This document shows, piece by piece, positions 16,743 to 39,862 of a stretch of 64,000 nt of DNA; position 1 is the first letter of the stretch; each line of letters starts with the position of its first letter. The notes beneath the pieces are model-generated. The model made no database searches, was not told the DNA's origin, and saw only the letters and a list, made by a program, of their open reading frames with translations. The position numbers and the translations under genes were made by a program. Source of the stretch: Pseudogymnoascus verrucosus (Eukaryota); NCBI GenBank assembly GCA_001662655.1, contig KV460214.1. The stretch is one strand, 5' to 3'.

Positions 16743-19700
16743 TTTGAAGGTGGTAGCCGTCGAGGTATGAGAAAAAGGGGTTGAGGATGGTGTCGATTAA
16801 TTGAGAGAGGGTGATAGATTGTAGTATACACCAAACGATTCTTAACGTATTAGCCTAAGGACGGCAATATGAAGTCGAATGCTTTTGTCTGTTGAAACAA
16901 GGTGGTGGATGGCAGTCTTATGCTGAATGTATGGTGGACAAGACGTGGTGATGCAAAGGATGGTGCTGAGAGTGATTGATAGTGTTGCTTGAGATAATAA
17001 TGCTCCGTATAGTATTGAAGAGAGGAAAAAAAGTTGAAACTCCGTATCGTATAGTGTCAGTGGCTCATTGGGTGGTATCGAATTGCTGGTAACAAAAGAG
17101 AAGTGATCGATTGATCGTAAACGGGGAAGGTCGACAGGTGGACGAGTGTCCGGAAAGGAAAAAAATAATATATATCGTTATAATGACATGAGAAATCGGA
17201 TAAAGTGCGAACGAGGTTCGACGAGTGATGGAAGTCTCGAAAAAAGAGTTGTGTTTGGCTTGCTGGAGGATGTCGAATCCAACAAAGGAAGTAGTGGCGA
17301 ACTGGAGTAGGTCAATCAACGGAGACGTTGGTTGTCCTGGAAGAATCGAAGGCACCCGTGAATAGGTGGCCGGTAGATGGTGAGGATGAGGGAAGGTAGC
17401 ACTGAGCTGACGAGTTGGGGAGGTATGACTCGATCGATGGTGCAGTCGACGAGATCGTTGGGAGAATGAGCCAGCAGGCTTTTATAAGGAGGCTGATAGC
17501 AGAGCGGCAGTCATCAGCTGACGAAGTTGATTGTTAGAACAGGTAGTCGAAGATGTGACTCTTCGGCCGCCGTGTTCACGAACTTGTTCGACAACCTTGA
17601 TGGTGGAGTACGCGTGGAGCCTCGGAGCAAGACGAAGCAAAACCGGGATTTATGCTGAACAGTTGCGGCTTTGAATTTTCGAGCAGTGATTGAAAGAGTT
17701 TCGATTGTTGGTGACACAAAGAATGTCGAGGATGATGTTTGTTGTTGGTGTTGTTGATTCCTCGTTGGTGGTTTGTCTCAACAAGTGGTTGATTGGGGGG
17801 GTCGAGGTTCTAGGTGGCGATTGGGGGGATGAGTCGAAGGGTCGAGAGTGAGATTGGGGTGTGAAGAGAAGAGGAGAAAGAGGAGGATGGATGAGCAACT
17901 GCGTGCACGAAATCGAGCTGCGTCCAGTCCTATATGGAAGATGAAATGAAGTTGTGGATGTGATGAGAGAAGGAAGAAAGCAAGAGGAGGATAGTCGGAT
18001 GGAGAGGAAATGGGGTCAGTCATGGACGGGGATATCAGGGTGTACTTGACTTGACGCCGCGGATTGCGAGGTAGTGGATGCCTGAGGCAAGAATACATGG
18101 GGGAACGGTACAAAAAGGTGGGAATGGGTGTGGAAAGGGTGGGCAATGCTGGGAATTGCTGGCGGTCAAAGAAGCGCTAACGCAGGCTGAGCACTAGCGC
18201 GGTCGGAGGGTGGCACGCTGGCAAAAGGTGTAGAAGGTGCTGGAGCAACCGCCAATCTTCCATTTTGGGGTGCGGTACCCGCCAGTCAAAGTTACTGTAG
18301 GGAGTACATGCCCCGCCCGTGTTGATTGAGGAGGCCGTAACCATACCAACCGTGGGAGTATGAAGGTGGACGGTCGGGGTTTATGGACACGAGACCAAGG
18401 GCGAGGCCGAGACTTGAACCACACCAGACCAAGACGACCAAGACGACCCAGACGACCAAGACTCACGTCGACCTCATCTCCGAGTGGTACTGTTTACTAC
18501 TGTATATTTACTACTGTACAGTACAAACATGAGGGGAAGAGGGAAAAAGAAGAATAGGGGAAATACAGTACAGCAACACAATCGGCATCAATTCCTATAG
18601 TAGATTGCAACCACCCTTCGATGATGCCGAACATGCATTCTTCATGTGCCAATTCGTCACTCTGAGCCCATTCTTCATCATCAGAGACTCTCCCCTCCAT
18701 TCAATCCCTTGCTTGTTTACTTACTCCTGCAGCAACCCATACACACTCCATACGATGTTTACACCTGCGAATGCCTGAGGTTGCATGGGATTTACCTGAG
18801 ATTGCCTGAGATCTGCCTGAGATTGATTACAGGTGTACACTTCGAAGTGTATGTATCTCCGCACCCCAAACGGTTGGTCCTGACCGTGTCCAGCACAACA
18901 CAAACTACTACTAAGCTACTGTACTCTAATCTACTCTACTGTACTCTAATGTACGTGCATCCACGCACTCCCAGTTGTCGAGGCAGCAAGTGTACCATGA
19001 CGCATTTGGCTTAATGCACGTCCCCCCATCCTCGTCTGGAGACCAATCGATGAACCCCGATCGACCACCTTAGCTCAGCAACGTGAGACAACGACCTGTT
19101 GCCGCTTTCACAGTTTCCTGTTGTATGTACTCTTCCACCACTTTCTACACATAAATCTGCACTGACGGCTTGGAGAAGGGTACATATCCCGATTACTCCT
19201 AGCGGCAGACACCTGGTTGGCTGGATTTGTGAAGCAATCTTATGCAGCCTTCCTGCCTCTGGGCATCCACACCAAACACCACCACCACCGACCGCCCATA
19301 CCGTAAATCCATCCCACACGCCTTGGCAATACAACGCCCAAGCAACGACCAAGGAGTGGCAGGAGAGGCAAAGAGGCATCATGCGCATACACCACCCGTC
19401 CACGCCGCCCATACCACACCACTTCGACTAATCAAAGACAAAAAATCGAAGACACTCGAAGGGTCTCTCCCAACAAACGATAGAACCGTGACAAGTATAC
19501 CCCCATCAGTCAGTTACAATTAGCAATATCTCTAGTCTCTCGGCAAATGGAATCTTCGGGGTCTTTCTGCTCTCCGAACGAGCGAGCGGGAGTATTACGA
19601 ATATCGATGGCGATGGCGATGGCGATGTTGTATTCACCCTTACCTGGCCTCATACAGTATCTCACCTCACCTCACCCCGTTATTCCAAAATTAGATGACG

Positions 19701-22700
19701 AATGCTGCGTAACCACACGAGGCGGATAGCCGGCCGCCCAGCGCGTCTAGATCAGGAGCGCGAGTCATCACCCAACCATTCGTTTCCTGTGAACCTCCGT
19801 TCTCGCAACTGTGAACTGTACGGACGACGGAGTACTGTACTCGTATACCTCCTTACCAAACATCGCCTGAATCGCCTCCCCCATTCAAAGATTCGCGGGT
19901 AGAAGGGTATCGCATCTAGAATATGGGGAAAGCAACGCAAGCAAGTACCTCGGCGCAGTCCCATAGGTCATCACATCATCAATCACGGAAATAGCACAAG
20001 GCCAGGCTGTTCATCTCAGCGCCAAAACGCCTCTCTTCCCCCATTGACCACCCAGACGACCGTGTACTCTCTCTCTAACTGTACTGCTGTACGTACTTCT
20101 AACCAACCACCACCCACCAACCACCCCCATTGACCATCCCATCCCCAGCGATCTTCCCCCCAGTCGACCGCCGTTGGGCGTTTGTCACAATCTTAAATTC
20201 AGCAGTTAGTAGACCACATGCTCAATTATAGCACCAAGCGTCGCAGCAAGCGTTGCAGCATAGCATGGCAAGTACAGCGGCGGGCATTCGTCCTTACATC
20301 GGTGGCTGATCCCCGCGGCGCCTCTCTGGACGGCAGGTCCGATAACTGGGTGGCTTTTGGAGAGGCGAGTCAATAGTCAGTTACTTACCCTCAAAAGGGG
20401 TGATCTTGTGCCATCATCACGACGGCTAAATTGTCTCACTACGCCATCTTCCATCTTCCCCCTCTGCCCCGACTGGCCGTACCGTACAAAGGTGTCTTCG
20501 AGCCGTCGAGTTAAGGGAAGTGGTAAGTGCAACGCTATTACTCGTGCTACGACGGACTGGGCTATCGTTGTGTAGGGGGCCGCGAATCCCGTGCTACGTC
20601 GTTGTTGTCGTTGTTTCACCGATAAGCAGGCGCTCTCAAGGCATTGAGGGGGGAGAGTGCGAGGTACTTGTCCCCCCCGCGGAGTTGGGTGAGGAAGTGA
20701 TGTACCACGATACCTTATCCAGGGACTTTTACCTTCCTTGCCCAGGAGGGAACCGTTTCATGAGTCCACCTCCTTTGCTACGATCAAACACATCAGATAG
20801 AGTACTCGGCATTAAGCATCAAGCAATCACGACTTAAACTGGTCCGATGTTTCTATATCCGCCCATCTATCTACCCCTCCACGCCTTATCCCATCCCTCC
20901 CCCCTTCCTCGGCTAGATCTTTCTCAAACGTGAACCTTGATAACCACAACCCGTTATCTATCTCCAGACGAGACGGGACGGAGAAGAAGCTCCAACCAAA
21001 CTCTATCGCCGTATCGTGTATCGCGGGATCGACGACGGAGGGACCAAAACCTGCTCAGAGGCGAAGTGTGCTGCTTCATACTTATGTAGTGCTTAGCAGT
21101 GTTAGCACCCATTCACAATGTTCGAAGTAAGTTAGTAGTAGTTTAGGAGTGATCAAGACTGGTTAAGACGGCCTTAGTCCCCCCCTCGTCTCCAAGAGTC
21201 CAAATAACCTTCAGCCCAGCACACGCGACGAACCAATAACTTCCCCGCGCCGTACACCACCTCCGGCCAAGCGACGAGTCCCTTGGGGCGCGGGTGAGGA
21301 GGAGGATGAGCCAGCCTGCTTGTTTGGGGTTTCATGCTCAACAGAATTGGCGTCGTCGTCCTTTTGCCGCTTTACGGAGTATAGTAACTTGTTGCTTCCG
21401 TTCGTCTGGTAGTAGTAGGCAAGTCTACAGCGGAATTACTCCTCCTCCCTCCTTTCCCTGTTAGCCGATTCACCCGCGCCCCCTTCGCTGATCCCGACGA
21501 CGGACGGACGACGGCGTGCTGGTAAAGCCAACCACTCGTCGAAGCCCGCCAGTGCGGCACTGACTGAGTCTGGCTGTTTCTCTCCGTCTTCCCCGGTTTC
21601 CTTAGCATGGAGGAAGGGACGGTACTGTACTGTACTACTTCCCCAAGTGTAGAGGCTACATACACCCAACTTGGCTCTCTTGAGACAGTTTCGAGGCCGT
21701 GGGTGTTGATTTCAAATCTCATCTGCCGTTCCAGCCGTTTTGACTGACGAGGCCTTGAGGCCCTGACGAGGCCCTGATGAGGCCTTCTCTGCCGCTTGGT
21801 CAAGCGCCAGGAAGGCCAGGAGGATTCAAGGGGCTGGGGACTTACTTACTTGGCTGCCGCCGTCCACGTATTGTACTGTACTGTAACTGTGCAGCAAGGT
21901 GAGGTAGATAAGGTAAAGTTCATGTACACGTGCCCAACCGCCCTTCCCAGCCAAAGCAAACCCACTATCCCCATCCCTCCCCTCCTCAATGGGGAAAATT
22001 TCCATCCATCCTCCCATTTCCATTCCCACCCTTCCCACTTCAAGCGTCGCACAACGCAGCAAAACTGCAGACCCGCCTGGCTGCTGCTGCTGGATGGATG
22101 TCGTTTTTACCAACCACCCAGCTTGTAGGTGCAGCATATGTGGATGGATGGGGATGGGGCATGCAATGGGGGGATTGGGGAGCCAATGGAAGGGGGGTTA
22201 GTTAGAAGCTAAGAGCTGCAGGTATGGAGAGGGGAGATACGTGGAGGGAGGATAAGACAGCGATCATGCTGTTTGGGTACCTGACATGCAGTGTGTGGTG
22301 TGTTTGCCAACGTCGGGCGGCGTCGTGTGTTTGGCTAGACTGCCAGCCATCTCTCTCTGTCAACTCTGCCGGCAAGTGATGTGAGAGAGAGAGGAGGGAG
22401 AGGAAGAGAGGGAGTGGCTGGTGGAAGCACCATGTTTGCCAGTGCGGGGGAGGGGGTTTGGAAGGGGTCCTGTCGTGGTGTCGTGACACGCGCTGGTGGA
22501 CTCTGACAGGTCATATCCCGCTACGTGGATGGTGGTGTCTCGAGGGATGGCTGGCGAGCGGCCATGACCACCACGACGACCACCATCTCCACCACTGGCA
22601 ACACCACCACAACCACAGCAACCACAACAATAACAAACAGACAGGTACGGTGCATCAGTCTACCACAGCAAGGTGAGTCCGGGGTAATCAATCACTCAGT

Positions 22701-23848
22701 AAGAAACCTTGCTCCTGTTCCAGACCTACAACGTCGCCGTTACGCCGGGCATGCAAACCCGAGACAGCGCCTCAGAGGAGGCGTTCGCAGGTGGTTCTTG
22801 AGGCGTGACTTGGGCGGCCTGTGTGTCTGGTGGTTGGGGGTTTGAATTACTCGATTGGGGATTGAAGCCGGATGGATGATGGCAGCACGCAAGGAGGATG
22901 GGGTGCTGGGTCATTCATGATGGGGAGGGCGGCGGCGGTGAGACATCGTGGCCGTTTGGATTTCTTCATCTTCAATTTCTTCGCGACCGTGAGCATCGCA
23001 TTGGAAGAGAGAGTTTAACGGCCACACCATCTGGTATCAATATTCAAACATCCAACAATCGTACCCACCACTATCAAAAAATCTCTTCAATCCTTCCATT
23101 TCTCAAATAACTTTTCCAGACCGCTCCTGCAATCCCATAGTAAACAACCCCCATCAAATCCCATCACTCCACACAAGGCATAAACAGAACCCACACCAGC
23201 TCTCCCCACCACCAGAGCCCGGCCCCGCTGTGGGCCAATGCGATGCGATGCCATGCCCTCCCGCCCTACCTCCCGCTGTACACCACCCACCAACATCCCC
23301 GTTAGCGTGCGCTCACCGCTATGTTAATCTCAGCCTGCATCTGCACTATCGAGGTTGCTTCATCCACACCTCTTTCCCTTTCTCAGCCGTAAGGCCCATC
23401 AAGGCCAGCTACCAAGACCAGATGGGTCGAGGAGCGCTTGCCTAATACGATTTTTTTCCCTTACCCAGCAGAGTTTTCTTCCGGCTTACACAATAACACT
23501 GCGCTGGAAGACGCGAAGAAGACGTGTTGCCGAGGGGAGGGCCGGGGCACCAGTCGCTTTACGGACCCTCGCACGTGGGTTTGCACGCGTTCACCGCTCA
23601 ATTGGGGTGAGAGCTGAGAGCTGAGGTGTCGTTTCTTCTACCGGTGCCATGTTGCTAAACGGCGCGGATCGTAACGGGGAGGGGAGTGAGTGGGGGGGGA
23701 GGTTGGGGGAGGTGAAGAGTTTTCATCCCAAGGAAAAGAGTTTGCGCTTCATTTCTGCTGCTTTTGGGTCTGACCGCCGCCGCCGTTGGTGGTGGGCTGG
23801 GGAGTCGTCGTCGTTGGTTTTGGGGTTTTGAGAAAATCTCTTGATAGT

Positions 23849-23885
23849 TATCACGTGATGAGGGTGGTTTTTATATCACGTGTTG
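23849..23885. promoter_or_regulatory. Pair of CACGTG (Cbf1/bHLH-type) E-boxes
   Basis: TATCACGTGATG at ~23849 and TATCACGTGTTG at ~23874; no protein gene found nearby. Confidence 0.45.
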
Positions 23886-25582
23886 GGTTATATTATGATA
23901 ATTGTTTTTGAGGTACGTTTTAAAGGAGGATTTGTGTCTTCTGGAATTTCTTCTATTATCGATGAGAGATGCAATGAATTAGAGAATAATATACATGGTC
24001 ACATGATATATATATAACTGCCGGTGTCGCCAAGGCGGACACGGGGCAATGCCATGAACGACGTGTGTGAGAAGTCATGAAACTTGGTCTGTTTCGAGGA
24101 ATATTCAGGCTGTTATTTTTATATTCTAGATGCCGCTGGAGAGTATCAGGTTCGGAAATAGGCGCGGGGAATCGGGTATTGGTTTTGTATCGAATTATTC
24201 TTCATGTGGTGAGGCATTATTATATTATCCCAGATATAATATGGATATTTCTCAGATGAGTTTTATCGATTCCTGAGACGGAGAAAAAAATAGCACCGGG
24301 AGAAAAGGATAATAGTACTAAAATAGCTGACAAGCCACACCTTAATCACTCCGCTTCACCCCGCATTCTGTAGATACCCGCCTTTATCATGTCAGAAACT
24401 TTACAAACTCCGCGCAGCAGCGCCAAAGTAATTAGACTTAGCGACCCCCCAAAAAAATAACAATGTTGCGTGCCTACTTCTGTCCTTTCCGTATTGGCCA
24501 ACTTCACTCCACCTTTTAGTAGCCCGCGGAAAAGCTAAACACCACAAGGGGTAGCGGGGCCGGAAGGGAGGAGGGGTGGCAGGATGTCAGGAGAGGGAGC
24601 GGGGAAAGGGGCAGGAGGGAGGTATCTAAGGGAGGGGTGATCTGACTTCGAGGATGATTAGGTTTGGGCTGTTTGCTTGACTCGTAATCGTGTATATTAG
24701 CTATGAATGACTATGCGAACTACACCTGAGTCCTGCTGCCATGCCTGATAATGAGCTCGGTGGAAGCGTCTTGTGCTCTGATGCATAATTCTGATGCATG
24801 AGGCATTTGGTCATTAGATCATCATACTGCAGTCAAACTCGCAGAACAGTGAATTAAAGTAAACACCCCAGCCATCTCTATTCTAGAATATGTAATTTCT
24901 TGAAACTCATCTTCAAAATCGAGATCACAGTGAGACATCCATGTCTTACCTCCCCATCATTCACAAAACTCCCAGCCATCAGGGTCTGAAACATCATTCA
25001 TGACCTTCTGACATCTATAAAATTTGCAGCACTCGTGCCCTAGATATATAAAATGACACTAAACCATGGAAGCACTGGGCCGTAATAAACTTCGGGGTGC
25101 ATTATATTGGAGAAGCCCCCCCAGCCATCATTTCTAGCCGCTATATAGAAAGCTCTAGATCAATCCATGTCTTTAAATAGAGGTCATGCTAAGATAGCGA
25201 TGTCTCACCTAGCCCATCATTCGGGAAATATCCCAGCCTTCAGGGTCCGAAACAGTCGGGCAAGATCCTGTGATCTCTAGAAACCTCGTGGTGGACGTGC
25301 TCACTGACCGAATCCTTCGGAGGACGTCGGCGTTGGTATCGGCGGCGGTTGGTATGCGGATGCCACTATCCGGCCTCCCTCGCTTGTGCCTGAATCTGCG
25401 CTGCAAGGCGAGGCGACGCCAGTCACTCCCCCTTGCCGTGTGATCCATGCTAGAATCCAGGAACGCCTCATTTTTCTGTCGTAGGATCCGCGTTTGTGCC
25501 GGTGCTTCGCTTGGGATGCTTTCTCAGTGGTCAAAAATTCATATCCCAGATTGTGCAGGGGATCGTGGAAACTAGTAGCTCC

Positions 25583-28048
25583 TTATTGGAGTACTGCATT
25601 GTTGTCGAAAGTGCTTACTGGTGGCCATTGGAGGAGCGTCGAGTAATCGTCGACGGCGTTCCAATTACCATTCCACATACCCTGAAGAAAATAATGTCAG
25701 TAATCTAGTTTCCAACCTCGAGATGAGGAAGATGGCGCTGTATCTTACCCATTCAAAGCCTGTAACATCTGGTACGGTCTCGGTGACCCGCTCCTGCGGC
25801 AAGACGACCGGCTCCAGATGATGCACAACATCATTGTTCAGTTGAACCTTTTGGTCTCCCCCTTCCGCGACTGGCCATTGCGTTGCCTTTACCTTATCCA
25901 GTACGAATGAGAACACTCCATACGCCTTGGCAGCATCCGCAGACTCATCCTTCCCGAGCCTCCAGAACCCAATGGCCGTCTCCAGCGCACCCACCATCTC
26001 GAATTTTCGATTAGAGCCCCAACGAGAAGCATCACTTGATATCTGGCCACTGGCACCGTGTTGAACTTCGGCGTATAAGTCCAGCGCGACTATTATCGCA
26101 GCAAGAAAGAAATCGTGCGTCGTTAGCCTGTGGAAGTGTCGTTTCTGGACATTCCGCGGGCAGGTAGCGCCGTGGTCCAAGACTAGTGCAGCTTGATGGC
26201 TTAGCAAGATCATGGCAGCGTCTATGCAGTTATCGCGGTATTCGATCGCTGCTGGGTAACGACGGGCTTGTGGTACGAATTTCCTGTACAGGAGACAACG
26301 GCCTAGATGATACACGCTGTCAACATCGATGCGTGATCGCTGTAGCTTCGCAGTTGCTGTGTCGCTGGCCGTGGGGGTAAATGGTTGGACACGGAGATAC
26401 CGAGGTATCAGCTCTCTGGCTTCTAAAAGAGCTTCGTCGTGTTTTTGGAGGTCTTCGCGCTGGATTTTAGTACGGGATCCTATGAGTTCAATGATATCAC
26501 TCAGAACAAGTATGAGTCTTCCTTTGACTATTGTGTAGGAAGCTTCTGTTGCTTCCTCCAAAGCCTCAGAAGGTGGGAGCTCTGTTGTAGTATCGTCGAA
26601 GTCGTCGTCGGAGATATTTCGTGGCATCGCGCAGGTGTAGTCGCATCTGCGAATCGTGGTGGGAAATGATAGCTTGAATGAGTAGAGGAGATCGGTGCGG
26701 AGTATGACGGCCCATAGTCGACTGCGCATTTCTCCTAGGAACGGACTGAGTCTTCGATGGTCGCTTGCGTTGCGATGTATTCCCATTCGCATGGCCAGAC
26801 GGATGGTGACGCCAAGTACTAGATAGCCTTCCATGCCAGTATCCTGAGCGGTCATCCATTCGACCTGGATATATAACATCAGAGTTTCAATCGTATAATG
26901 GACGGGATTGGTATAATCCGCCGCTAGGAGGCATTCGACTGTGCGCTTTCCAAATTCCCAAGGAGTGCGAAGAGCATCAGCCAAGACTGGTGGCATTTCA
27001 GTCGGGTCTCCATAAGATAGTTCTGCTAGGTGCAGCATGGCAAACATAAGCCCAAGCCACACGATTCGCCGTTGCGTAGGATCATCCCAATAAGCTTTAT
27101 ACTAATGCAGACATTTTAGCTATCAAACGCTAACGAGCTCAGAAATGGAAGCTCACCTCTTTACGAAATGTACGTTCGTGTATTATAGCTGTTGAGTATC
27201 AGAAACGATCGGACAAGGCAGCCATGACAACATACGCATTATCCAGGAATAGACACTGAAGTAACGATCAACAAGTATGTCGACTACAGCTCTCGGAGGT
27301 AATTGAGCAACGAGCTCTTCTTGGCTAACTTTGATGCCTGTCCCGCGAAGTAGACCCGATCTGCCTTTGGCATCCCATGAACGTTCCTTATATTTTAAGG
27401 CATTGCGCTCATAGTCTTCGTGGTTTGACGCAAAGAACATGCGGATTTCGTCAATCTGATAGAAGAATAAGCCAACCAGACAATGATATAATGGGTTTCT
27501 TGCCCAGGGGGTTTGAAGCTAACCTCAGCCAATATTGATACCCAGTGTGAAGAACCAAGGTACTCGGTATTGTTCAACTTATCAACTTTCATAGCCCCTA
27601 AAGACTCAGTAATGCCATCAAATTCCCGATCATCCACGTGACTCGAGTCATCGGACTGAGGGGTTTGGTCTTTTTCCCCCATGACAGACCGTAAAATAGA
27701 CTCTAGTTTGTTAATACGAGCAGTTAAAGCATTTTTCGTAGTTCTATCCATGACGATTTGGTCGTCTCTGTTGGTGCCGCGGGACTCAAAGTGGCATGTG
27801 GTGGCATCCCCAGATTTGGAGCAAGCCCCGCATGGTTGCACTCGATTGCATTTCAGTCTGGTACAACACAGTTAGTATCGCGTATGATGTATGCAAATGG
27901 ATGGAGACAGGAGATATCTAGCTCCTCAAATTTCTCAAGAGCCTTCTTACTTTCTGATCCGGCAGTGGTTGCAGGAAACAGGGGGCCTGTTCCGTCTCCT
28001 CTTTCGGGCCAGCCCTTTATCCGCATGTGCGACATCCATGGAATCCAT
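25583..28048 (-). CDS. Zn(II)2Cys6 transcription factor with fungal-specific TF middle domain (multi-exon; 3' end uncertain)
   Basis: RKRRRNRPPVSCNHCRIRK / LKCNRVQPCGACSKSGDATTC across a GTAAGA intron; ARINKLESIL, YLGSSHWVSIL, LPPRAVVDILVDRYF, RLAMRMGIHR, EMRSRLW, PRNISDDDF. Last exon tentatively GMWNG...NAVLQ*. Confidence 0.9.
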
Positions 28049-29301
28049 CAACAATTAAAGCGCCCGAGGCTTAAAATATTTACAATATGGCATGAGATGG
28101 CCAACAATTCATTCTGATTAAAACAAGATATCCATCCACGGGTAGAGAATCTATCTGTTTGCGCCCTCAGGAGTCAGATGAATTGCCATGGGTTTGGCAG
28201 CCGGACTAGCGTGCTTTGTAGTCAGGGGTCCCTGTCGCTTCAACCACACAACTTCAACGACGTCACGTTGTCAAGAGGATTCCACGACCATGGCATAAAG
28301 GGGTTTCTGTGATAGTTTGCCTTGTTGAAACATGGACATCGCACATATAAGTGCCTTCTGGTGGCAAATGGTGCCGTAGCCTACCGTTTTGGAGACACCT
28401 TGAGCAGATAAGTGCCTTCTTCATTAGTTGCAAGGCTCTTTGGACGTTTCCTTCCGTTTTACTATATTTATCTCAGATTTCGCTCGTTTCCTTCTGTTGT
28501 ACATGCGGACGGGAAATTCCACGCACATCTCTCAATTCTGTGGTGGTTCTTGGTATTTAGCCATCTGGCTAATTACCACGTTGTCCTTGGAATACATTAC
28601 TAAATTTCGTTCGAACATGAAAAGGGTAGTTGTTGGCAATGAAGAAGTTGAGGGCAAGCCAGATATCGATATACCACGGCGGTTAAATGTCAGTTGCTCT
28701 AAGCCTCAGGGGTTGATTAGACTTTGCGGGGTTGAAAGCCCCTAGTAAGCCATCGCTTTTTAACAATCGGGATGTACGTTATTTGGCGACGGTCCACGGG
28801 ACAACAATTGGGCCTCTGACAGAAACATTCGCGGGGTAAAGTATGATTCCGCGCAAGTTCTTAGTTCATGCTTAATTTCATCTTCAACATTGACTGAACA
28901 TTGGCCAGTGACTGATGGCACCTAAGCATTCTTAGACATGCATAATTCATATTAGCCAGCAAGAATCACATATGTTTTGACGCCATCTCATGCAGTCTTT
29001 ATCATCTTGTGCTCAGGTTTACTCCTTTACATCCCAATTTCTCTATTGTCAACAAAGGGGTTGGCTTCATCATTTCAGCCTAAACCATTCCGTGATCTTA
29101 GCCGCCGTTTCCTCCTTTCCTGCGTGCCGCGTTGGCTTCAATATTGCAACTGGCAGTGATCTCTATTACCTGGGGCGGAGAAGTATAAAGGAGTGATGAT
29201 CCCCCCTCGAGGAGTGGTCTCAGTTAAATTCTCAGAGCATCATTCACCAATACAGTATATACATTGTTCTTGAAGCCAAATCCCAACAAACAACCACCAA
29301 A

Positions 29302-29589
29302 ATGAAGATCTCCGCTGCCACCATCGTCCTTGTTATTGGACTTGCTGTTGCCGCCCCTGCTGCTGAACCAGTTGCTGAGCCAGCCGCAGTCCTCGAGGGT
29401 AATTATACCCTACTATCTATCTTTTGGTAGCTTAATGTTTTCCTTGGCTTACTTGAACCCATAGCCCGTACCTGTCCCGCAGGTCCTATCGTCGAGTCTT
29501 GCTGGAATACCTGCAAGAGTCAAGGCAAGACTGGTGCTGCATACACCAAGTGCTGGAAATGCTGCGGTGCAACCTGCACCACCTGCTAA
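29302..29589 (+). CDS. Small secreted cysteine-rich peptide precursor (73 aa; exons 29302-29398, 29465-29589)
   Basis: MKISAATIVLVIGLAVA|APAAEPVAEPAAVLEAR|TCPAGPIVESCWNTCKSQGKTGAAYTKCWKCCGATCTTC*. Strong context (caccaaaATG), GTAATT...TAG intron, TATAAA at ~29186. Not in the ORF track. Confidence 0.88.
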
Positions 29590-29913
29590 AGGGGGTCCTC
29601 ACTACGCTGCCTCAAGGTCGATGCATTGGTGGTGGCATTGGAATTGATATGTGGAGGCTCGAAACGTGGTAGATAGCTTGGCAAATTCGGATACTATGGC
29701 TACAGCTGTAAGCGCAATTAAAGCCTTTATATTCTCTTGGTGGACATGGAAATCGAAGTAATTTTGTATGTCTAATATTATTATTAAATTGTACCCCTCC
29801 TTCCACTCCGACAACTTCGAATCTTCATTACATGGTAATACATATCCTACAAAGCAACCTAGGTCTTAAAGCTCAAATCCGTATTTACGGGTATATTGGA
29901 GAGAACCCGTACC

Positions 29914-32688
29914 TCAACTCTCAGTTCCATATTGCGAAAGCAACTTCCCAGTCCACTTCTCCCCATATGCATTCGTTCCAGCCCCAGAAAAAAATCTATC
30001 ATGACCCCTCGCAATGACATCTATCCAGGACCCTTGTTCATACACAGCATTCCACTATCCACCGTCAGCTCTCTCGTGTCATTAGTTTGAAGACTCTGCT
30101 GTAACATACCTGATTATGCATATGGTACGCCCATGCACCGCGGAAGAAATTCTCCATCGTGCGATTGTTTCCATGCTCCGACACGGCCGCCATCTCTCCA
30201 TCATACGCACTCCACTCATCGCCTGAGATGCGGGCTTTAAAGACATCGCTCCAGCTCTTCAAACATGGCACCAAACATCTCCCAGTCGCCATGCCATCCA
30301 TGGCAGGCCATGGAGGGTCAAAGAACGCGCTCTCGAGCTTCAGCAGGCCGCGCTCAGAGTTGACCTCGTTACGGCCTTCACTAACCATCATTCTCCCAAG
30401 GATCATAAAATGATACATCAACCCCATCCGCGTCCCGCCTGTTAGTAGATAGGATGACATGCTTGAGTTCGCAGGGAGAGCTACCAAGGCGTTGTTGTAC
30501 AGTGTTGGATCAGCATGTGCGCCCCAGCGCTCTGAGAATGGGCGACCAGGCAGCAAGAGAGGACGCATGTCGCGTAGAAGAAGCATGTCAATGTCGAGAT
30601 ATACACCCCCGTGGAGATGAAGGATGATGAGGCGTGCAGCGTCGGAAGAGGCGACCGTATAGAATGTGAGTTGTGTCTGATCGCCCGGTTTGTAGAACTG
30701 GATATACTCCTGTCCCGCAGCATCCCGGACGATAGAATCTGCAACAAAAACCTCGCCCTGAGAGTTTGGCTTACCAGGTTGTGCGTAGTAGCGTGCTTTG
30801 TCGAGAGGGTCGATGGTCGGGGAGATAGGAACACGGGAGGGGAGACGCCACTCCTTCAACTCGATTTCGCCAGTTTCGATGAATGAGAGGAACTTCGCGA
30901 AGCTTGGATGCCTGATCCAGTTTGTTAAGGCACCGGGGTGATGATCGACGTTAATCCAGATCCAAAGTCTAGAGCAGGCAAGTCTCTGAGTATAGAAGTA
31001 GGATTTTATGAAGAGTTCTGTGCGCCATGATGGTGGTCCAGACCACCAGACATGGTATAGAATGACAGGACCTCCACAGTTTGAATCATCAGGCCCTAGT
31101 TTAGGAACTGTAGCAGTTACAGCTTGGCCTGCCTCTGGAACCTGGAAATATGTATCTTGCTGGGTAGCTAGGTAGTCGATGCACTTTCGGACATCTCGTA
31201 GTTTTTCTGGTTTCTCGTAAGGTCCTCGGCATTCATCCACCAGAAGGTCTAGGTTTGCCAATATATCTGATTTAGCACGTGGACCAAGGTAGGCGTCATG
31301 GTCTGGCGTTGGAGGGAAAAACAGAGGGAGTTGGGCTTCTGTCCCATAGAAGCCTCCGATCTGGAAACCAATGTGGCAGGATACCAAAACTATAGCTGTT
31401 ATGAGAATACGCCGGAGAGTGAAGAACCCGAAATATTCTTTGTGTCGAGGAAGCGACGGCTTCTCTATCCAAGAAAAGAGAGTATCCAAGGACTGCATAT
31501 GGTTTTTTAAGAACCAAATTCCGGAAGCAATGCAGACAGTGATTCCAAACTTCTGCGAAAACAACAGACTTGAGAACGTTAGGACAGTCATTTGTGAAGC
31601 GTATGCAAGAACAATAACGAAATTGGCTGTAGTCGCACAGGTTGCCCGTATGAGCAGAAGTGTGCTGCAGAAAAAGATAAAGCGAAAGAAGCCAACTTGT
31701 ATCTGGAGTAGGAGCCATTGAAAGAGTACGCCATTGACATAGACGTTTCGAAAAACTTGTTGTGACTCTGTTGAGATAAGAACTGCAGCAAATAAGAGGG
31801 CTACGCATGGTAATGATACGTAGCAGGTATACTTCCAAAAGGTAAGTATGCTTTGTGGTCTGTCTTGTGGTTTCGAGCCTCTAGGAAGCTCAAAGTAGCC
31901 ATTAACGTTCCTGCCGTCGTTCTCTGGCACCGGAGTACTTGCAAAGGCATACTGTGTAAAAACAGGCCAAATAGCTCCAAGTATGGATGAAAGAAATGCG
32001 CACCAAACAGCATTGGATGGCCAGGGAAGATCGTGTCGATATGCCGCGACGGCGGTTCCCAACGACAGCAAAAGTGATGGATATGCCTTCCCCGCTACTG
32101 GTAATATGTCTTGATTTGAGAACACGAGTTTTGATATCAATATCGATATGGGAAGAACCAACGAACGAAAAATGACATATATCTCTAAAGGAGCAAAGCA
32201 AAAAGCGTAGCTGGTCAGAGCATATTCAGCTGCGATAATCACAGCCAGCGCAACGATTCCTCGAGCATTATTAGGATTCCATGCTGGGCGCAGGACTTCT
32301 TTGGTATTATCAACATCGGAGTAGTCGTCTAACCCGGTGTCGGTCGGGGGTATAGGATTATAAAATGCCGATAGCCATGTTCGTTGGACCGGCTGTAGGA
32401 AGGAGAGAATGCAACCGCTCAAAAGTATAAAAATGCTCGCAATCAATTGATGTAGTAGTGTGGTTGAAAGAGGAAAGGCAAATCGTAGGACTTCAGCATA
32501 TGGTAACTGAACTGCACCAGCTGTGGCGTTATTAGCATTGGCGGACCAGAAGATGCAGTGATAGGATGCTTACTTTGCAGCATAGGCCTGCCGATGGAAA
32601 GCCCATAAGTTGATAGCACAACGCATACTATGAGGGCGCCTTTATATCGGTATAGCCAAGTCCATTTTGCTGGAAGACTGTTCGACAT
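29914..32688 (-). CDS. Fusion protein: N-terminal nucleotide-sugar transporter (TPT/SLC35C-like) + C-terminal GT32 (DxD) glycosyltransferase; exons ~32688-32574, 32521-30110, 30054-29914
   Basis: Transporter motifs FPLSTTLLHQLIA, IYVIFRSLVLPISILIS and LLIRATCATTANF with multiple TM segments. The same frame continues into YHVWWSGP..RLWIW, SDAARLIILHLHGGVYLDIDMLLLRD, NNA and AWAYHMHNQ/W. Confidence 0.82.
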
Positions 32689-33231: not shown

Positions 33232-36200
33232 ATGGCTTGTACGAAAGAGACGGTTAAGGCTCATGGCCTTAATATATGGTCTACGGGTGCTCCGCCAGGG
33301 TCCACAACAGAAGTGGAGTAAGTCAGCCTACACCAACTTGTAACCTGCCAACTCGTCATAGTATCGTCGGTGTTCAGGGATTAGGCTCTGACCCGTTCTT
33401 CACCTGGGTCAAGAAAGGGCGAGCCCCAGAAAGTAAATCGTCGAGGAAACTTGTGGATAAGCTATGGACCAGGAAAGATAAAAAGCACCCGAAACTAGAC
33501 GGGAACAACGAGCCCGTTGAGTTTATGTGGCCTCGAGACCTACTCGTGCCATCATTTACGAATGCGCGGGTTGCCACCTATAGCTACAAATCCGGCAAAG
33601 GGGTTAAGACCACCTTGCGCCAATTGGCCGAACAGTTCCTAAACGTATTGTTCCAACACAGGCAGAAGCCAGATGTGAGATGCTCAGCGATTCTCATCTG
33701 ATAAGAGTGCCCCTAAATTAAGAGCAACAATAGGAACGCCAAAGACCACTGGTCTTAATTGGGCACAGCCTTGGGGGGCTTGTCATCCAACAGGTCTGTT
33801 GGACGCCATTCTGCTGTGAGGGTCTCACCTACTGACTAAACTGCACAAAGGCTCTCGTTATCGCCGCGCTGAACCGAGACTTTCAAGAGCTTCGTCTCTC
33901 AGTGTCGGGTGTAATCTTCCTTGGGGCACCTTTCCAAGGAAGTAATGCGGCTGTGCTTGGAAAACGGCTGGCACAGGTCACCGGGGGTGATCTTTCTCTG
34001 TTAGAGTTGCTACAAAAAGATAATACAAACCTACAGTCTCTATCGAAAGAATTCTCTGATAGCCACCACGAATGGGACTTCGTGTGCTTCTACGAAGATA
34101 CAGATGCTGATTATACTCTGTTTAAGACTCGGGTTTGGATCTCTTTCTTTTTTACATATCGATCTCTCCCGTTAACTATATGAAGGTAGTAACTGCCTCG
34201 TCGGCTACTTTAAGCGGAAGGCGAATGATATTTTTACACACCGATCACTCTGGGCTTAACAAGTTCAGTGGATCAAATGATGAGAATTATGCTTTGGTAC
34301 TGCCCGAATTACAGAGAATGGTCAATAATGGACCTTCAATGGTGGCCAATCGATTCAAACCTAAAGGTACTAACTTATTGGGCTCCGGGATCTTCTCCTA
34401 GATACTTTGGCTGACTTTTTAATTTTTGGCTTAAAAGTGGGCGAACCAGCTGGAAACAAGCATTGGCTAGTTCCCCGCGGGATCAATAAACTATTTACTG
34501 GGCGCTCTGAGATTATCGATAGGATCAAAGCGGCGTTACAAGATGACGGTGCTCAGCATGCCGGGAAACAGAAGGTATTTGTAATTACCGGCCTTGGGGG
34601 CATGGGAAAAACCGAAATCTGTTTACAAGTAGCGAATATATTGCGGGAAGAGTGAGCTCCCTCGTTGGACTAAATTATGGATCCCGGACTTAACTGACAA
34701 CGGCAGCTTTTGGGGCGTGTTCTGGGTCGATGTCGATAGCGAGTCTACAGCAAAAAACGACTTTATTTCCGCTGTGGCGTCATTCGGATCCTCAGCCAAG
34801 AGTGTTGATGATGCACGTCGATTACTTGCAAACACAAAGCATAACTGGCTCCTTATTCTGGACAACGCTGACGATCCGGAGTTCGACTATCAAGCATACC
34901 TACCATCAGGGTCTCGAGGTGTGGTACTCGTGACATCTCGTATTTATGACTGCAGTCAATACAGCACAGTTGGCTCAGAAGTACTCACGAGTCTTGATAT
35001 CGGCCTATCCAAACAGCTTCTACTCAGAGCAGCAAATATTGCCGAGGACCTGTGGCCATCTGTCGATCAACAAGCAGAGGATATTGCTAAACTCATTGGT
35101 TCACACACACTTGCGCTAATCCAGGCTGGAACATACATTGCCAAGGGCTACAGCCGACTAGACCAATACCCCGAAGTCTATGGAAAACATCGCAAACGAC
35201 TCCTTACATATCGACCTTCACAGGCCCAGTCAAGATATGGTGACGTTTATGCGACCTTTGAAGCGTCTGCCCAGATTTTAGAGAATTCTGAGAGTGAGGA
35301 TGCTAGAGATGCTCTACGTTTGCTTGGGATACTTTCAATGCTGCATTCAAGTGCTCTCCCACTTCAGATATTCGAAAATGCATGGAACCGCTCTAGGAAT
35401 GTTCTTCACGTCAGTGACACAGAGATAGACCTAGGAACTTGCTCCCGATGGCACGCCTTACAGTTGCCAGAATTCATGGAAGTGGAAGCAAACGAATGGG
35501 ACCCCCATCGTCTCAACAAAGCGAGTTACTTGCTTGTTTCGCTTTCATTTGTCGTGCGAAGCAATCTAGCTGGGGAATCACCTAGCCTATCTATGCATCC
35601 GCTAGCTCACGCCTGGGCTAAAGATCGCCAGGAATTGATCCAGCAAGGCCAAACCTGGATCGCCACTGCCTGTATTGTTGCACTATCTATTCTCTGTTAT
35701 GGCTCCCCAAGGGACAGCCTAGTGCATCTCCAATCTTTGCTCAATATAGAAGTCAAGACAGCATTCTCTCTCGGACCGAAACCCATGCTGGTCTCGATTT
35801 TTATCATTTTTTGCCAGAACCTAGCAACAAACCGGGACGATTCAAGGCTCAAGACCCTCCTTCAAGACATATTCGGCATTCTTGCAATCGAGTTTGATAA
35901 ACCATCAATAGAATACCTGGAAATATACAGAATTTATGGGATAAACTTGCAAGACATTGGAGATTTAGCAAATTCCCTTCAACTATATATACAAATCGCG
36001 AAGATTCTCGATGAGAGACTACCTCATTCTCACTACAAGCGGCTTATTTCACAGCACAACGTCGCAAATGCGTATCATGCCAGTGGGGAAGTAGAAAAAG
36101 CGATAGAGATTTTTGAGCAAGTAGTAGAGGCTCAAGAGGACCTTCATATTACTAACGGTCGCCGGCTCATGTCACAGCATGAGCTTGCCCGCGCATACGT

Positions 36201-37344
36201 TGCTAATGGGCAAGTGGATAAGGCGATAGAACTCCTAGAGCAAGTTGTGGAGATTAAAGGCACAATGCCCATTGCTCACCCTGAGCGGCTCATGTCACAG
36301 CATGTGCTCGCACGCGCATATCATGAGAATGGGCAAGCGGATAAGGCGATTGAGCTCTTTGAGCAAGTTGTGGAGATTAGAGAAAGCGTGCTACCTATTA
36401 CCCACTACGATCGACTTGCGGCACAAGACGAGCTTGCATTCATATATAATGCAAATAGGAAAGCATATAAGGCAACACATCTCCTAGAGCAAGTGGTAAA
36501 GATTCGAGAGGAATTGCTACCTACTACTCATCATGACCGGCTTGGATCAGAGCACGAGCTTGGACACACATATCTTCAGATTGGGCGAGTAAAAGAGGCG
36601 ATAAAGCTCCTAGAGCAAGTAGTGAAGAACCGAGAAGAGATCCTTCCTGTTGATAATCAAGCCAGGCTCATGTCACAGCACGAGCTTGCACGCGGATATG
36701 TTATAGATGGGCAGGTGGAAAAGGCAATAAAGATCCTGGAGCAAGTTATGAAGCATAGATGCAAACTGCCTACTGACCACCCTAGTCGACTCATGTCACA
36801 ACACGTGCTCGCTCGCGCATATTATAAGAATGGGCAAGTGGATAAGGCCATTAAGCTCTTTGAACAAGTTGTGGATAGCGAAGGCGCACTACCTATTACT
36901 CATCCCGACCGGCTCTTTGCACAGCATGAGCTCGCCTGCGCATATAATACGGATGGCCAAGTGGATAAGGCAGTAGAACTCCTAGAGCAAGTAGTAAAGA
37001 TTCAAGAAGAGGCGCTACCCGTTGCTAACCCGGAGCGGCTGAGTTCACAGCACGAGCTTGCACACATATATCTTGTTAAAGGGAAAGGGGGCCGAGTTAA
37101 AGAGGCAATAGATCTCTTAGAGCGGGTAGTGAATGTTCGAGAAGAGGTTCTGCCTGTTACTAATACTCAAAGGCTCGCATCTCAACATGAGCTCGCATAC
37201 GCATATTATCTGAATGGGCAAGTAGAGAAGGCGATAGAGCTCATGGAGCATGTGGTGAAGATTAAAGAAGAAGTGCAACCTGCTACTGACAATAGTCGGC
37301 TCATATCACAAAGTCTGCTTGCTCGTTTCAAGAAGGGGGTATAA
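33232..37344 (+). CDS. Fungal NLR: SesB-like alpha/beta-hydrolase + NB-ARC + TPR repeats (7 exons)
   Basis: DIVGVQGLG, WPRDLL, IGHSLGGLVIQQ, VIFLGAPFQGS, DHSGLNKF; FTGR, P-loop GLGGMGKT, Walker B WLLILDNAD, LVTSR, LALIQAG, MHPL; ten 41-45 aa RLxSQHxLAxAY repeats. Confidence 0.92.
36040..37330 (+). repeat. TPR-coding tandem repeat array (~123-126 nt unit, 10 full + 1 partial)
   Basis: Recurrent cggctcatgtcacagcatgagcttgc...gggcaagtggataaggcgat...gagcaagt. Confidence 0.9.
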
Positions 37345-38362: not shown

Positions 38363-39221
38363 CTACTTCCCCGAATTCAACATCTGTCGCAACGCTCCCA
38401 ACTCGCCTTCCAATCGCGCAACCCGAACACTCAGGTCGTCTCGTTCGCGCTGCGTATTCTTCAGCGCCGTTTCCAGCTCGGTGACTTGGTCAACGCGCTT
38501 TTGGCGGTACCGGCGGGCGGCGAGGGTGTTCAGTTTGCGCTTTCTGATTGCGGAGTTGGGCTGGGTGGTGGCTGTGGTTGCAGTGGACATGGTGGAGCCG
38601 GGAGAGGTGGTGGATTTGGTTGTGGGCATGTGGGCCGGGGAGTCTGATGAGATTGACTGTGAAAATGGAGAAGGGCTGTTGGCGACTGTCTGTAATGAGT
38701 GCTGTGAGAAGTCGTCTAAGATATATGTTAGATATGATCAAAACGTTCCATAGCTTTAGAGGCTGACCTTGATATGCATATGATACAGGTTCCGAAAGAT
38801 TCTCGAGGGCCTCCGGAGGAGTGTCTAGGCCGTTTTGGTTGTGAGGCGTGATCATGATTGACTGGTAGGTAGCGCCACCATCGAATGCGAATGGGTCTAT
38901 AATGGAAGTAGGGTCGTGAAAGGCTTGGTCATCGAAAGAAACATGGTATCCCGGCTGTGGTGCCAGGTCACCGTCGGTGACAGAATTGTCATTTTGAAAC
39001 CAATCAACTTGTTCAGAGGCTGGACTTTGAAAATAGCTAAAGGATGGTGTGCCCGAGTAAACGGGATCGATAAGGTGGGGTGAAGGAGCGTAGGATAGAT
39101 TTGCATTGAGCTCGGGAGAGTAAAGGTTATGAGTGGTATCTGTAGCCAAGTAAGGCTGTTGTTGTTGGCGCTGGTCTTGTCTATACGACAAGTTGCTGCC
39201 ATGGAGGCTCGACGACAACAG
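38363..39221 (-). CDS. bZIP transcription factor, JlbA/IDI-4-like; one intron (~38768-38717); start codon uncertain (CTG 39221/TTG 39218, or first AUG 38855)
   Basis: RKRKLNTLAARRYRQKRVDQVTELETALKNTQRERDDLSVRVARLEGELGAL basic region and zipper; exon 1 is open from 39311 with no AUG until 38855. Confidence 0.8.
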
Positions 39222-39862
39222 CGAGCTGTTGCGGTTGGAAGTAGAAGGTCTGGGAAAGACACGGTGCGCACATGGTTCTGATGTTGGAAGAGGGCAAGGG
39301 GGAATTGCTTTCTACGGGCCCTTATGACCCGTTGCGGTTGAACTCAAGGTTTGAGTAGACTTGGTATCAGCGAATGATCACTGAAGGGGGATGAAGTCGA
39401 GGATGAGGGGGGATGGACATATAAGGTGGTGTATCTTCGCTTGGGGCTGTGTCTCGATGCCTTACATAATCAATTATTGGGGGATTCTCCAATCACAGGC
39501 CCAACACGAGGTTAGATGGGTAGAAATACAATGCAAACAATCGGCCTCACTGCCTCTACACTTTTAGCCGTAATACCTAATAATACGGAATTCAGTGGCA
39601 CTGCTTCAATTTTAAGCTGCTCTTGGATCAAGTTGTCCATCAAACAAAAGTACGTTGTGAACAGACAGAAGGTGCATACCCCGCTACTGCGTTACCCCTC
39701 CATGACATTCGGCGTGAAGGTCTGCTACCGCGATTGCGGTTTACACGGTGTATATTTATACACGATATGTGGCAATGAGCTATTACTGACGTCTTTCTAT
39801 TAAAGGGAATAGAACTCATTGTGCCCCTTTACACTGTTCTCAAACTACTCAGAAGAGGCAGA

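What the first reader, a model, noticed from the sequence alone, without database searches (positions are those of the whole stretch)
25583..32688. Candidate fungal glycopeptide (glycocin-like) cluster: Zn2Cys6 regulator + 8-Cys peptide precursor + nucleotide-sugar-transporter/GT32 fusion
Seen: a Zn2Cys6 gene divergently shares a ~1.25 kb intergenic region with a 73-aa secreted Cys-rich precursor. The precursor ends 325 bp from a convergent gene that fuses a nucleotide-sugar transporter to a DxD glycosyltransferase. All three sit in an accessory patch next to an NLR. Known: bacterial glycocins (sublancin, glycocin F) are disulfide-stapled helix-loop-helix peptides glycosylated in the loop by a cluster-encoded GT, and fungal clusters typically carry a Zn2Cys6 regulator. 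Inference: the CWNTC-KSQGKTGAAYTK-CWKCC core offers Ser/Thr/Tyr acceptors in its loop and passes through the Golgi, where the fusion enzyme would act, so the trio could produce a glycosylated antimicrobial or effector peptide. Caveat: characterised GT32 enzymes (Och1, Sur1, A4GALT) usually elongate glycans or glycolipids, and adjacency may be chance.
Basis: partly seen in the sequence, partly recalled or inferred. Interest (0 to 1): 0.8.

Follow-up and report, generated by a model that had tools for sequence, protein, structure and literature searches.

The report
Sugar-transporter–glycosyltransferase fusion beside hairpin peptide
A soil-fungus genus keeps a regulator, a small secreted cysteine-rich peptide and a sugar-adding enzyme with its own built-in sugar importer side by side, but the enzyme occurs in other fungi without the peptide, so it probably does not exist to decorate that peptide.

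Summary
The three genes are real and lie where described: a 711-aa Zn2Cys6 regulator, a 73-aa 8-Cys secreted precursor and an 888-aa protein with an SLC35-like transporter fold fused to a DxD GT-A domain. The block is not accessory: it has consecutive locus tags in 11 of 11 Pseudogymnoascus records of the peptide. That synteny is one genus only. The fusion is older and wider (Claussenomyces, Cudoniella, 21 metagenome loci in 8 groups), and none of those 21 loci carries the peptide or the regulator. The peptide was found only in Pseudogymnoascus. It is a predicted helix-loop-helix with an invariant loop Thr, but it has 8 Cys, a signal peptide and hairpinin-like CX3C spacing, not glycocin architecture. 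Best reading: a Golgi glycosyltransferase with a built-in nucleotide-sugar importer that works on glycans or glycolipids, next to an unrelated hairpinin-like peptide that the regulator may control. A dedicated glycocin-like pathway is not excluded (about 8%). Co-expression could not be settled. The fusion and the peptide were not found described in the library searched and are worth testing on their own.

The parts
25583..28048 (-). Zn2Cys6 transcription factor, 711 aa, six exons (28048-27951, 27857-27524, 27455-27236, 27188-27157, 27101-25749, 25681-25583)
   Evidence: spliced translation equals P0266; PF00172 + PF04082; spliced contigs in runs X7 and X1
28049..29301 (.). 1253-nt divergent intergenic region; TATAAA near 29184 upstream of the peptide; no excess of CGG-pair motifs
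   Evidence: a spliced regulator contig of run X7 reaches at least 28730, so part of it may be 5' UTR
29302..29589 (+). Secreted peptide precursor, 73 aa: signal peptide, Ala/Pro/Glu-rich pro-region ending LEAR, 39-aa mature peptide with 8 Cys (spacing 8,3,12,2,0,3,2), pI about 8.5; intron 29399-29464
   Evidence: model helices 7-17 and 23-35, pLDDT 74; cleavage after LEAR is inferred
29914..32688 (-). SLC35-like transporter (about aa 10-380, about ten hydrophobic segments) + anchor helix (about 405-427) + stem + GT-A domain (about 517-845; DID at 681-683), 888 aa, three exons
   Evidence: both introns spliced in runs X1 and X7
33232..37344 (+). Neighbouring NLR-type gene (hydrolase-like N-terminus by eye, P-loop, TPR repeats); start approximate; not part of the proposed trio

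Best explanation
Three working genes with separate histories that became neighbours in the Pseudogymnoascus ancestor. (1) The fusion is a Golgi enzyme: an SLC35-type domain imports a nucleotide sugar, an extra helix carries the chain into the lumen, and a metal-dependent DxD GT-A domain adds that sugar to an existing glycan or glycosphingolipid. It is a one-gene version of the transporter + glycosyltransferase module. Shown: folds, DxD, hydrophobic segments, splicing, wide occurrence without the peptide. Inferred: Golgi location, transport activity, donor, acceptor. (2) The peptide is secreted, cut after LEAR (inferred), and folds as a cationic disulfide-stapled helical hairpin, probably an antimicrobial or protease-inhibiting peptide (inferred from hairpinin likeness), active without a dedicated sugar. 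(3) The regulator may control the peptide through the divergent promoter (inferred, weak).
For: Fusion architecture in 31 of 73 tree rows, in two supported clades (17 of 18 and 14 of 18 rows fused; quick tree), with named members from Claussenomyces and Cudoniella. 21 of 58 metagenome loci are fused (8 near-identical groups, 6 with 9-10 kb on both sides); 0 of 21 have a peptide or regulator profile hit; no hairpin motif or convincing small secreted Cys-rich gene there; their neighbours differ from group to group. Peptide found only in Pseudogymnoascus. The P. destructans fusion orthologue is intact and expressed in 21 of 21 samples, mean 102 normalised counts (PMC12113139 File S1), while no P. 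destructans record was among the peptide homologues. At least 150 Zn2Cys6 genes in the genome, so 3-6% of two-gene blocks have one beside them by chance (gene number of 10,500 assumed). The same genome holds a PF04488 gene beside a separate nucleotide-sugar transporter and a PIG-L deacetylase. Fungal GT32-like enzymes named in PMC12493134 and PMC9769593 (passages) act on glycans or glycolipids.
Against: The order is kept in 11 of 11 peptide records over a divergence at which the transporter domain falls to 71% identity. Loop Thr21 is invariant in 11 of 11 sequences. The closest solved GT folds are protein-modifying bacterial enzymes (YeGT Z 11.8, SetA 11.6, PaTox 11.5), though Cgm1, which elongates a glycan, also has YeGT as top match (PMC12493134). 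An ancestral glycan enzyme could have been co-opted in this genus, which outgroup loci cannot exclude. A missing annotation in P. destructans is not proof of loss. The fusion model is of low confidence (mean pLDDT 52).
Confidence: 0.62

Rival explanations
1. Dedicated glycocin-like pathway: the regulator turns on peptide and fusion, and the fusion transfers a sugar directly to loop Thr21 of the peptide in the Golgi.
For: Genus-wide order; helix-loop-helix with invariant Thr21 in the loop; GT fold clade includes Thr/Tyr-modifying enzymes; both products pass through the secretory path (inferred).
Against: 0 of 21 fused loci outside the genus have the peptide; 8 Cys, no double-glycine leader, no free loop Cys, unlike glycocins as described in PMC6405829 and PMC10125368; fusion expressed in P. 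destructans, for which no peptide record was found; no shared promoter words above chance.
Confidence: 0.08
2. Incidental glycosylation: the general ER O-mannosyltransferases (recalled) start an O-glycan on Thr21 and the fusion extends it, as it does on many secreted proteins; the peptide is one client among many.
For: Cryptococcus GT32 Hoc1/Hoc3 extend O-glycans (PMC9769593, passage); Thr21 is exposed in the model.
Against: No glycosylation data; short basic loop; the fusion persists in lineages without the peptide, which fits generality but gives no link to this peptide.
Confidence: 0.15
3. Co-regulated defence module: the regulator drives both genes, and the fusion remodels the producer's own wall glycan or glycosphingolipid to protect it from its peptide, rather than modifying the peptide.
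For: Stable linkage in the genus; a regulator paralogue on contig C73 also lies beside a 10-Cys secreted peptide; fusion counts co-vary with the two next locus tags in P. destructans (rho 0.87, 0.78). Sphingolipid targets of antifungal peptides are recalled, not tested.
Against: The C73 pair has no glycosyltransferase in the 18 kb scanned; 3 of the 4 closest regulator paralogues have no such peptide neighbour; the identity of the co-varying tags is unknown, the tag two steps away on the other side also correlates (0.69), and no genome-wide background was available; no shared promoter motif.
Confidence: 0.12

Closest known systems
Aspergillus fumigatus zwitterionic glycosphingolipid (Af3c) gene cluster, with OchC
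   Same: GT32-type transferases working on a glycolipid in a gene cluster (PMC9769593 passage and the title of its ref. 25). That the cluster includes a dedicated nucleotide-sugar transporter and a deacetylase is recalled; the paper itself was not held. A locus of that make-up exists on contig C74.
   Different: Here transporter and transferase are one polypeptide, the transporter has no PF04142 hit, and the GT domain is only distantly related to the C74 enzyme (no hit at E 0.01 with the GT-domain profile).
Fungal GT32 (Och1/Hoc, Csg1/Sur1) and GT139 (Cgm1) enzymes
   Same: PF04488 over cut-off, DxD, GT-A fold, membrane anchor plus stem; Cgm1 also has DID and YeGT as top structural match (PMC12493134 passages).
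   Different: N-terminal ten-helix transporter; no direct sequence comparison with Och1 or Cgm1 was possible, so the CAZy family (GT32 or GT139 or new) is open.
SLC35 / nucleotide-sugar transporters (CMP-sialic acid transporter, SLC35B1, Vrg4, TPT)
   Same: Fold: Z 13.7, rmsd 5.0, 257 aligned to 5y78; Foldseek E 2e-4 to the CMP-sialic acid transporter.
   Different: No Pfam transporter hit in 7 of 7 family members, no PDB sequence hit; belongs to an uncharacterised fungal family with a standalone paralogue on contig C5; substrate unknown.
Alpha-hairpinins (VBP-8, luffin P1, BWI-2c, nigellin-1.1)
   Same: Two helices joined by a loop with facing C-X3-C pairs (C11/C15, C28/C32), cationic; these entries appear among the fold hits, all weak (Z 3.6-3.9; E 4-10).
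   Different: Eight Cys with an internal CC, which the curated criteria exclude (PMC11591084, Table 1); fungal single-peptide precursor; no sequence similarity.
Glycocins (sublancin, glycocin F, pallidocin)
   Same: Helix-loop-helix stapled by disulfides, hydroxyl residue in the loop, a glycosyltransferase gene next door.
   Different: Bacterial, five Cys and two disulfides, double-glycine leader, ABC peptidase-transporter, SunS-like enzyme (PMC6405829, PMC10125368 passages); none of these is present here.
Fungal Hairpin Loop Peptides (PMC13357843)
   Same: Fungal, secreted, two helices with nested disulfides.
   Different: HLPs have six mirror Cys, about 64 hydrophobic residues, start with GP, pI 5.5-6.0; this peptide has 39 residues, 8 Cys, pI about 8.5.

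Membership tests
Glycocin | Helix-loop-helix core | tested here: met
   single-sequence AlphaFold2 model, helices 7-17 and 23-35, pLDDT 74
Glycocin | Five Cys, two nested disulfides (PMC6405829) | tested here: not met
   8 Cys, spacing 8,3,12,2,0,3,2
Glycocin | Double-glycine leader and ABC peptidase-transporter in the cluster | tested here: not met
   signal peptide + pro-region ending LEAR; no ABC gene among the window's scanned ORFs
Glycocin | Ser/Thr/Cys acceptor in the interhelical loop | tested here: inconclusive
   Thr21 invariant in 11 of 11; Ser17 varies; no loop Cys; presence is not use
Glycocin | Cluster-encoded transferase dedicated to the peptide | tested here: inconclusive
   adjacent in 11 of 11 genus records but 0 of 21 fused loci elsewhere have the peptide
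Glycocin | Mature peptide is glycosylated and needs the sugar for activity | not testable with these tools
   needs mass spectrometry and assays
Alpha-hairpinin | Strict C-X3-C-X4-20-C-X3-C with X not Cys, no CC, at most two extra Cys (PMC11591084) | tested here: not met
   C11-X3-C15-X12-C28-X3-C32 holds C31 inside the second X3; four extra Cys
Alpha-hairpinin | Two antiparallel helices with facing Cys pairs | tested here: inconclusive
   model and weak fold hits agree; disulfide pairing not read from coordinates
Fungal Hairpin Loop Peptides | Six mirror Cys, hydrophobic, starts with GP, pI 5.5-6.0 | tested here: not met
   against PMC13357843 parts 1-2
PF04488 / GT32-like GT-A enzymes | PF04488 over cut-off, DxD motif, GT-A fold | tested here: met
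   37.5 bits vs 23; D681-I-D683; Z 11.8, rmsd 3.4, 197 aligned to YeGT
PF04488 / GT32-like GT-A enzymes | Placement in CAZy GT32 rather than GT139 or a new family | not tested
   no Och1, Sur1 or Cgm1 sequence was in hand
SLC35 nucleotide-sugar transporter | Ten-helix DMT fold | tested here: met
   hydropathy; low-confidence model
SLC35 nucleotide-sugar transporter | Sequence match to a transporter Pfam (PF04142, TPT) | tested here: not met
   0 of 7 members; Atlas feature hits to Nuc_sug_transp clusters score 0.80-0.81, a lead only
SLC35 nucleotide-sugar transporter | Transports a nucleotide sugar | not testable with these tools
   needs uptake assay

The most novel reading that the evidence does not exclude
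In Pseudogymnoascus an ancient transporter-glycosyltransferase fusion was co-opted into a three-gene pathway that puts a sugar directly on loop Thr21 of a secreted helical-hairpin peptide: a eukaryotic, Golgi-based counterpart of bacterial glycocin biosynthesis with the sugar donor channelled by the enzyme's own transporter.
Probability: 0.08. Interest if true: 0.85.

Novelty: new variant of a known kind. Interest (0 to 1): 0.4.

Why it matters
The fusion is the solid result: a natural one-chain joining of a nucleotide-sugar transporter fold and a DxD glycosyltransferase, found in two clades of fungal enzymes. It lets one test directly whether a transporter channels its donor to a partner transferase (a long-discussed question; recalled), and it points to an unknown fungal glycan. 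Searches for such a fusion returned nothing relevant in the held library. The peptide is a conserved, genus-restricted hairpinin-like candidate antimicrobial with no record in the library under its locus tags or by topic. If the glycocin-like reading held, it would be a glycosylated-peptide pathway in a fungus, for which one search found no report.

Tried and rejected
Complex prediction of GT domain + Mn + peptide gave no verdict (score 0.00); not used either way. No RNA holder was on record for the stretch; runs X1 and X7 show spliced regulator and fusion contigs but no listed piece on the peptide, which is not evidence of silence or loss. Peptide: no Pfam, PDB sequence, viral-contig or Atlas match of weight; glycocin structures were not among the listed fold hits, which excludes nothing. 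Och1 was not among the listed fold hits of the fusion, likewise. Promoter: CGG-pair counts 0-3 against 1.2-1.6 expected; shared 8-, 9-, 10-mers 23, 6, 1 against 20.4, 5.2, 1.3. Six of seven supplement searches for the P. destructans tags found nothing (two files were at the storage cut), so the neighbours of VC83_07826 stayed unidentified. The careful tree did not finish; the quick tree was used, and P0058 and P0119 were dropped for short GT coverage. The word-indexed search of the fusion returned only 7 hits among 8000 candidates and was superseded. 'Accessory patch' rejected.
Full report
Observation. All three genes are present at the stated places. The peptide gene (29302-29398, 29465-29589) encodes 73 aa with 8 Cys and equals database protein P0002. 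The regulator's six exons translate exactly to the 711-aa P0266, with Zn_clus and Fungal_trans domains. The fusion's three exons translate exactly to the 888-aa P0019; the gaps are 1253 nt (ATG to ATG) and 324 nt (stop to stop). Contigs of runs X1 and X7 skip both fusion introns and the first regulator intron, so these two genes are transcribed in relatives. All close homologues are named Pseudogymnoascus.

Synteny inside the genus. The peptide search gave 4 clusters holding 11 strain-level locus tags; in 11 of 11 the fusion has the next tag on one side and the regulator the next tag on the other. One of these may be the window's own genome. Regulator and fusion are two tags or accessions apart in three further strains, adjacent in P. 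australis, four apart in one, and merged into one gene model in another; the tail of V494_02256 aligns with the antisense translation of the peptide region. Metagenome locus L009 and two contigs of run X13 also join peptide and fusion. So the block is genus-wide, not accessory, and lies among housekeeping genes. These records share ancestry and count as one event. I had no background for how often neighbours stay linked in this genus.

Outside the genus. The whole-library search found 410 relatives of the fusion at E 0.001 or better, 150 listed. Of 75 sequences screened, 73 entered a GT-domain tree; 31 carry the transporter domain, in two clades (17 of 18 rows, SH-aLRT 100, with the window's protein; 14 of 18 rows, SH-aLRT 99), beside a standalone clade of 13 that holds the genome's own paralogue on C78 (quick tree; the transporter profile was built partly from the window, L010 and L032). 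Named fused members come from Claussenomyces and Cudoniella; most are unnamed. Among 58 metagenome loci, 21 are fused and fall into 8 near-identical groups, 6 of them with 9-10 kb on each side and two with only 2.0 and 0.5 kb downstream. Peptide profiles hit only L009 (next best E 0.86) and the regulator profile hit none of the 58; tBLASTn agreed. A motif scan and a crude signal-peptide scan found no convincing substitute peptide beside the fused genes. Pfam on 97 ORFs of 7 fused groups showed unrelated neighbours; one group has a Zn2Cys6 gene of another family two genes away. In Claussenomyces the regulator homologue M1818_005522 and the fusion M1818_006007 are far apart in tag order. The enzyme therefore exists without this peptide. 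Co-option within the genus remains possible.

The fusion. PF04488 scores 37.5 bits; the motif is D681-I-D683 with upstream D665/R668 and a C-terminal H840. The model is weak overall (pLDDT 52) but gives two clear folds: residues 3-357 match SLC35-type transporters (Z 13.7, rmsd 5.0, 257 aligned; Foldseek E 2e-4) and 523-850 match GT-A enzymes (YeGT Z 11.8, rmsd 3.4, 197 aligned). About ten hydrophobic segments plus one at 401-420 fit a lumenal GT domain (topology inferred). The transporter half is related to a standalone gene on C5, has no Pfam or PDB sequence match and changes faster than the GT domain (71-94% against 91-98% identity over 9 strains), so reduced or altered transport is possible. 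The best GT fold hits modify proteins, but Cgm1 has the same top hit and extends a glycan (PMC12493134, passages), so fold does not tell the acceptor. The fungal GT32 enzymes named in the two papers read act on N-glycans, O-glycans or glycolipids (PMC12493134, PMC9769593, passages). The genome has 11 PF04488 matches; the one on C74 lies beside a PF04142 transporter and a PIG-L deacetylase, which shows the transporter-transferase module in separate genes.

The peptide. The mature 39-mer is identical in 6 of 9 other strains and 87-97% identical in the rest. All 8 Cys, Thr21, Tyr25 and Thr26 are invariant in 11 of 11 sequences; Ser17 and Thr14 vary; there is no N-X-S/T sequon. The model has helices 7-17 and 23-35, leaving Thr21 as the only loop acceptor. 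Fold searches give weak hits that include several alpha-hairpinins (no E under 0.001, best Z 4.8 to an unrelated peptide). It works like a hairpinin at best: the curated criteria exclude it (PMC11591084, passages and Table 1; PMC7191063, passages). It is not an HLP (PMC13357843, parts 1-2 of 7 and passages) and lacks the glycocin hallmarks of five Cys and a double-glycine leader (PMC6405829, PMC10125368, passages). Processing after LEAR by a Kex2-like protease is recalled knowledge. The word-indexed search covered only 28-91 aa proteins sharing 5-residue words, so distant relatives may be missed. The genome holds at least four other small secreted Cys-rich propeptides (C37, C21, C73, C16); none scanned lies next to a transporter-GT fusion, and the C21 one is separated from a soluble PF04488 gene by two other genes.

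The regulator. At least 150 Zn2Cys6 matches (150 of 297 candidates scored) make chance adjacency 3-6%. No promoter signal stood above shuffles. One of the four closest paralogues (C73) lies about 1.1 kb from a 10-Cys peptide gene with no GT in the region scanned; three do not. This after-the-fact observation favours a regulator-peptide link a little and a GT link not at all.

Expression. In PMC12113139 (passages; five rows of File S1) the P. destructans fusion orthologue VC83_07826 averages 102 normalised counts in 21 samples; neighbours average 3.1, 0.05, 13.0 and 7.5. It co-varies with 07827 (rho 0.87), 07828 (0.78) and 07824 (0.69). These neighbours could not be identified, and no P. destructans peptide record turned up, so the data neither show nor exclude co-regulation. 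Annotation files that were cut or not held may settle this (PMC5810475, PMC7549942, PMC13208438, PMC8788850, PMC12505510, PMC12843306: supplement searches only, no hits).

Literature. Searches for a fused transporter-GT32, a fungal glycosylated peptide cluster, the locus tags and Pseudogymnoascus peptides returned nothing that describes these genes; these were judged from listings, and the library lacks most subscription journals.

Verdict. Observation confirmed; glycocin-like reading not supported but not excluded (0.08). Most likely (0.62) a general Golgi glycan or glycolipid transferase with its own donor importer next to an independent hairpinin-like secreted peptide. The fusion is a new variant of a known module and the peptide an undescribed genus-restricted family. 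Interest 0.4.

Noticed in passing
G000:C73:99920-100237 (+) and 101428-103501 (-) (L084, L088): A 78-aa secreted precursor with 10 Cys lies convergent to a paralogue of the window's regulator (about 34% identity); no glycosyltransferase in the 18 kb scanned.
   Followed up: partly
L074:9319-8978 (-) (G000:C21, start 210818): Two-exon 10-Cys secreted precursor ending its pro-region in LEAR, paralogue of the C73 peptide; about 3 kb from a soluble PF04488/Caps_synth gene, with NmrA and lactate dehydrogenase genes between.
   Followed up: partly
G000:C37:185664-185870 (+) (L077:1501-1707): 68-aa secreted precursor with 6 Cys whose prepro region is 49% identical to the window peptide family; no glycosyltransferase among neighbours scanned.
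   Followed up: partly
G000:C16:325892 (-) (L098): Another small secreted Cys-rich precursor with at least 6 Cys.
   Followed up: no
L071:4171-8870 (G000:C74): PF04488 transferase, PIG-L deacetylase and PF04142 nucleotide-sugar transporter within about 4.7 kb; resembles the A. fumigatus zwitterionic glycosphingolipid cluster (make-up recalled).
   Followed up: partly
L006:7194-8924 (-) and 5923-6249 (+) (G000:C78): Standalone paralogue of the GT domain (51% identity) with a single anchor helix; a 108-aa secreted protein lies convergent to it. Relatives L040 and L051 have an alpha/beta hydrolase gene nearby.
   Followed up: partly
L008:4276-5316 (-) (G000:C5): Standalone member of the transporter-like family, with no Pfam hit; an uncharacterised SLC35-like fungal family.
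   Followed up: partly
window 25788-27103, run X7: The spliced regulator contig of unnamed organism B shows 11 alignment gaps in the main coding exon; whether they keep the frame was not checked.
   Followed up: no
window 16800-25500: Long gene-poor stretch with no ORF of 170 aa or more and low-complexity tracts, upstream of a protein kinase gene.
   Followed up: no
window 33232-37344 (+) and 38363-39311 (-): NLR-type gene with TPR repeats, followed by a bZIP gene; NLR conservation across strains was not tested.
   Followed up: no
L016:17947-18567 and L027:17880-18518: Two fused loci of the second clade share a downstream Glyco_hydro_cc (PF11790) gene; L027 also has a second PF04488 gene upstream.
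   Followed up: no
P0275 (VE03_02744) and P0010 (V494_02256): Database gene models are wrong at this locus: one joins the GT domain to the regulator, the other reads through the antisense strand of the peptide gene.
   Followed up: yes
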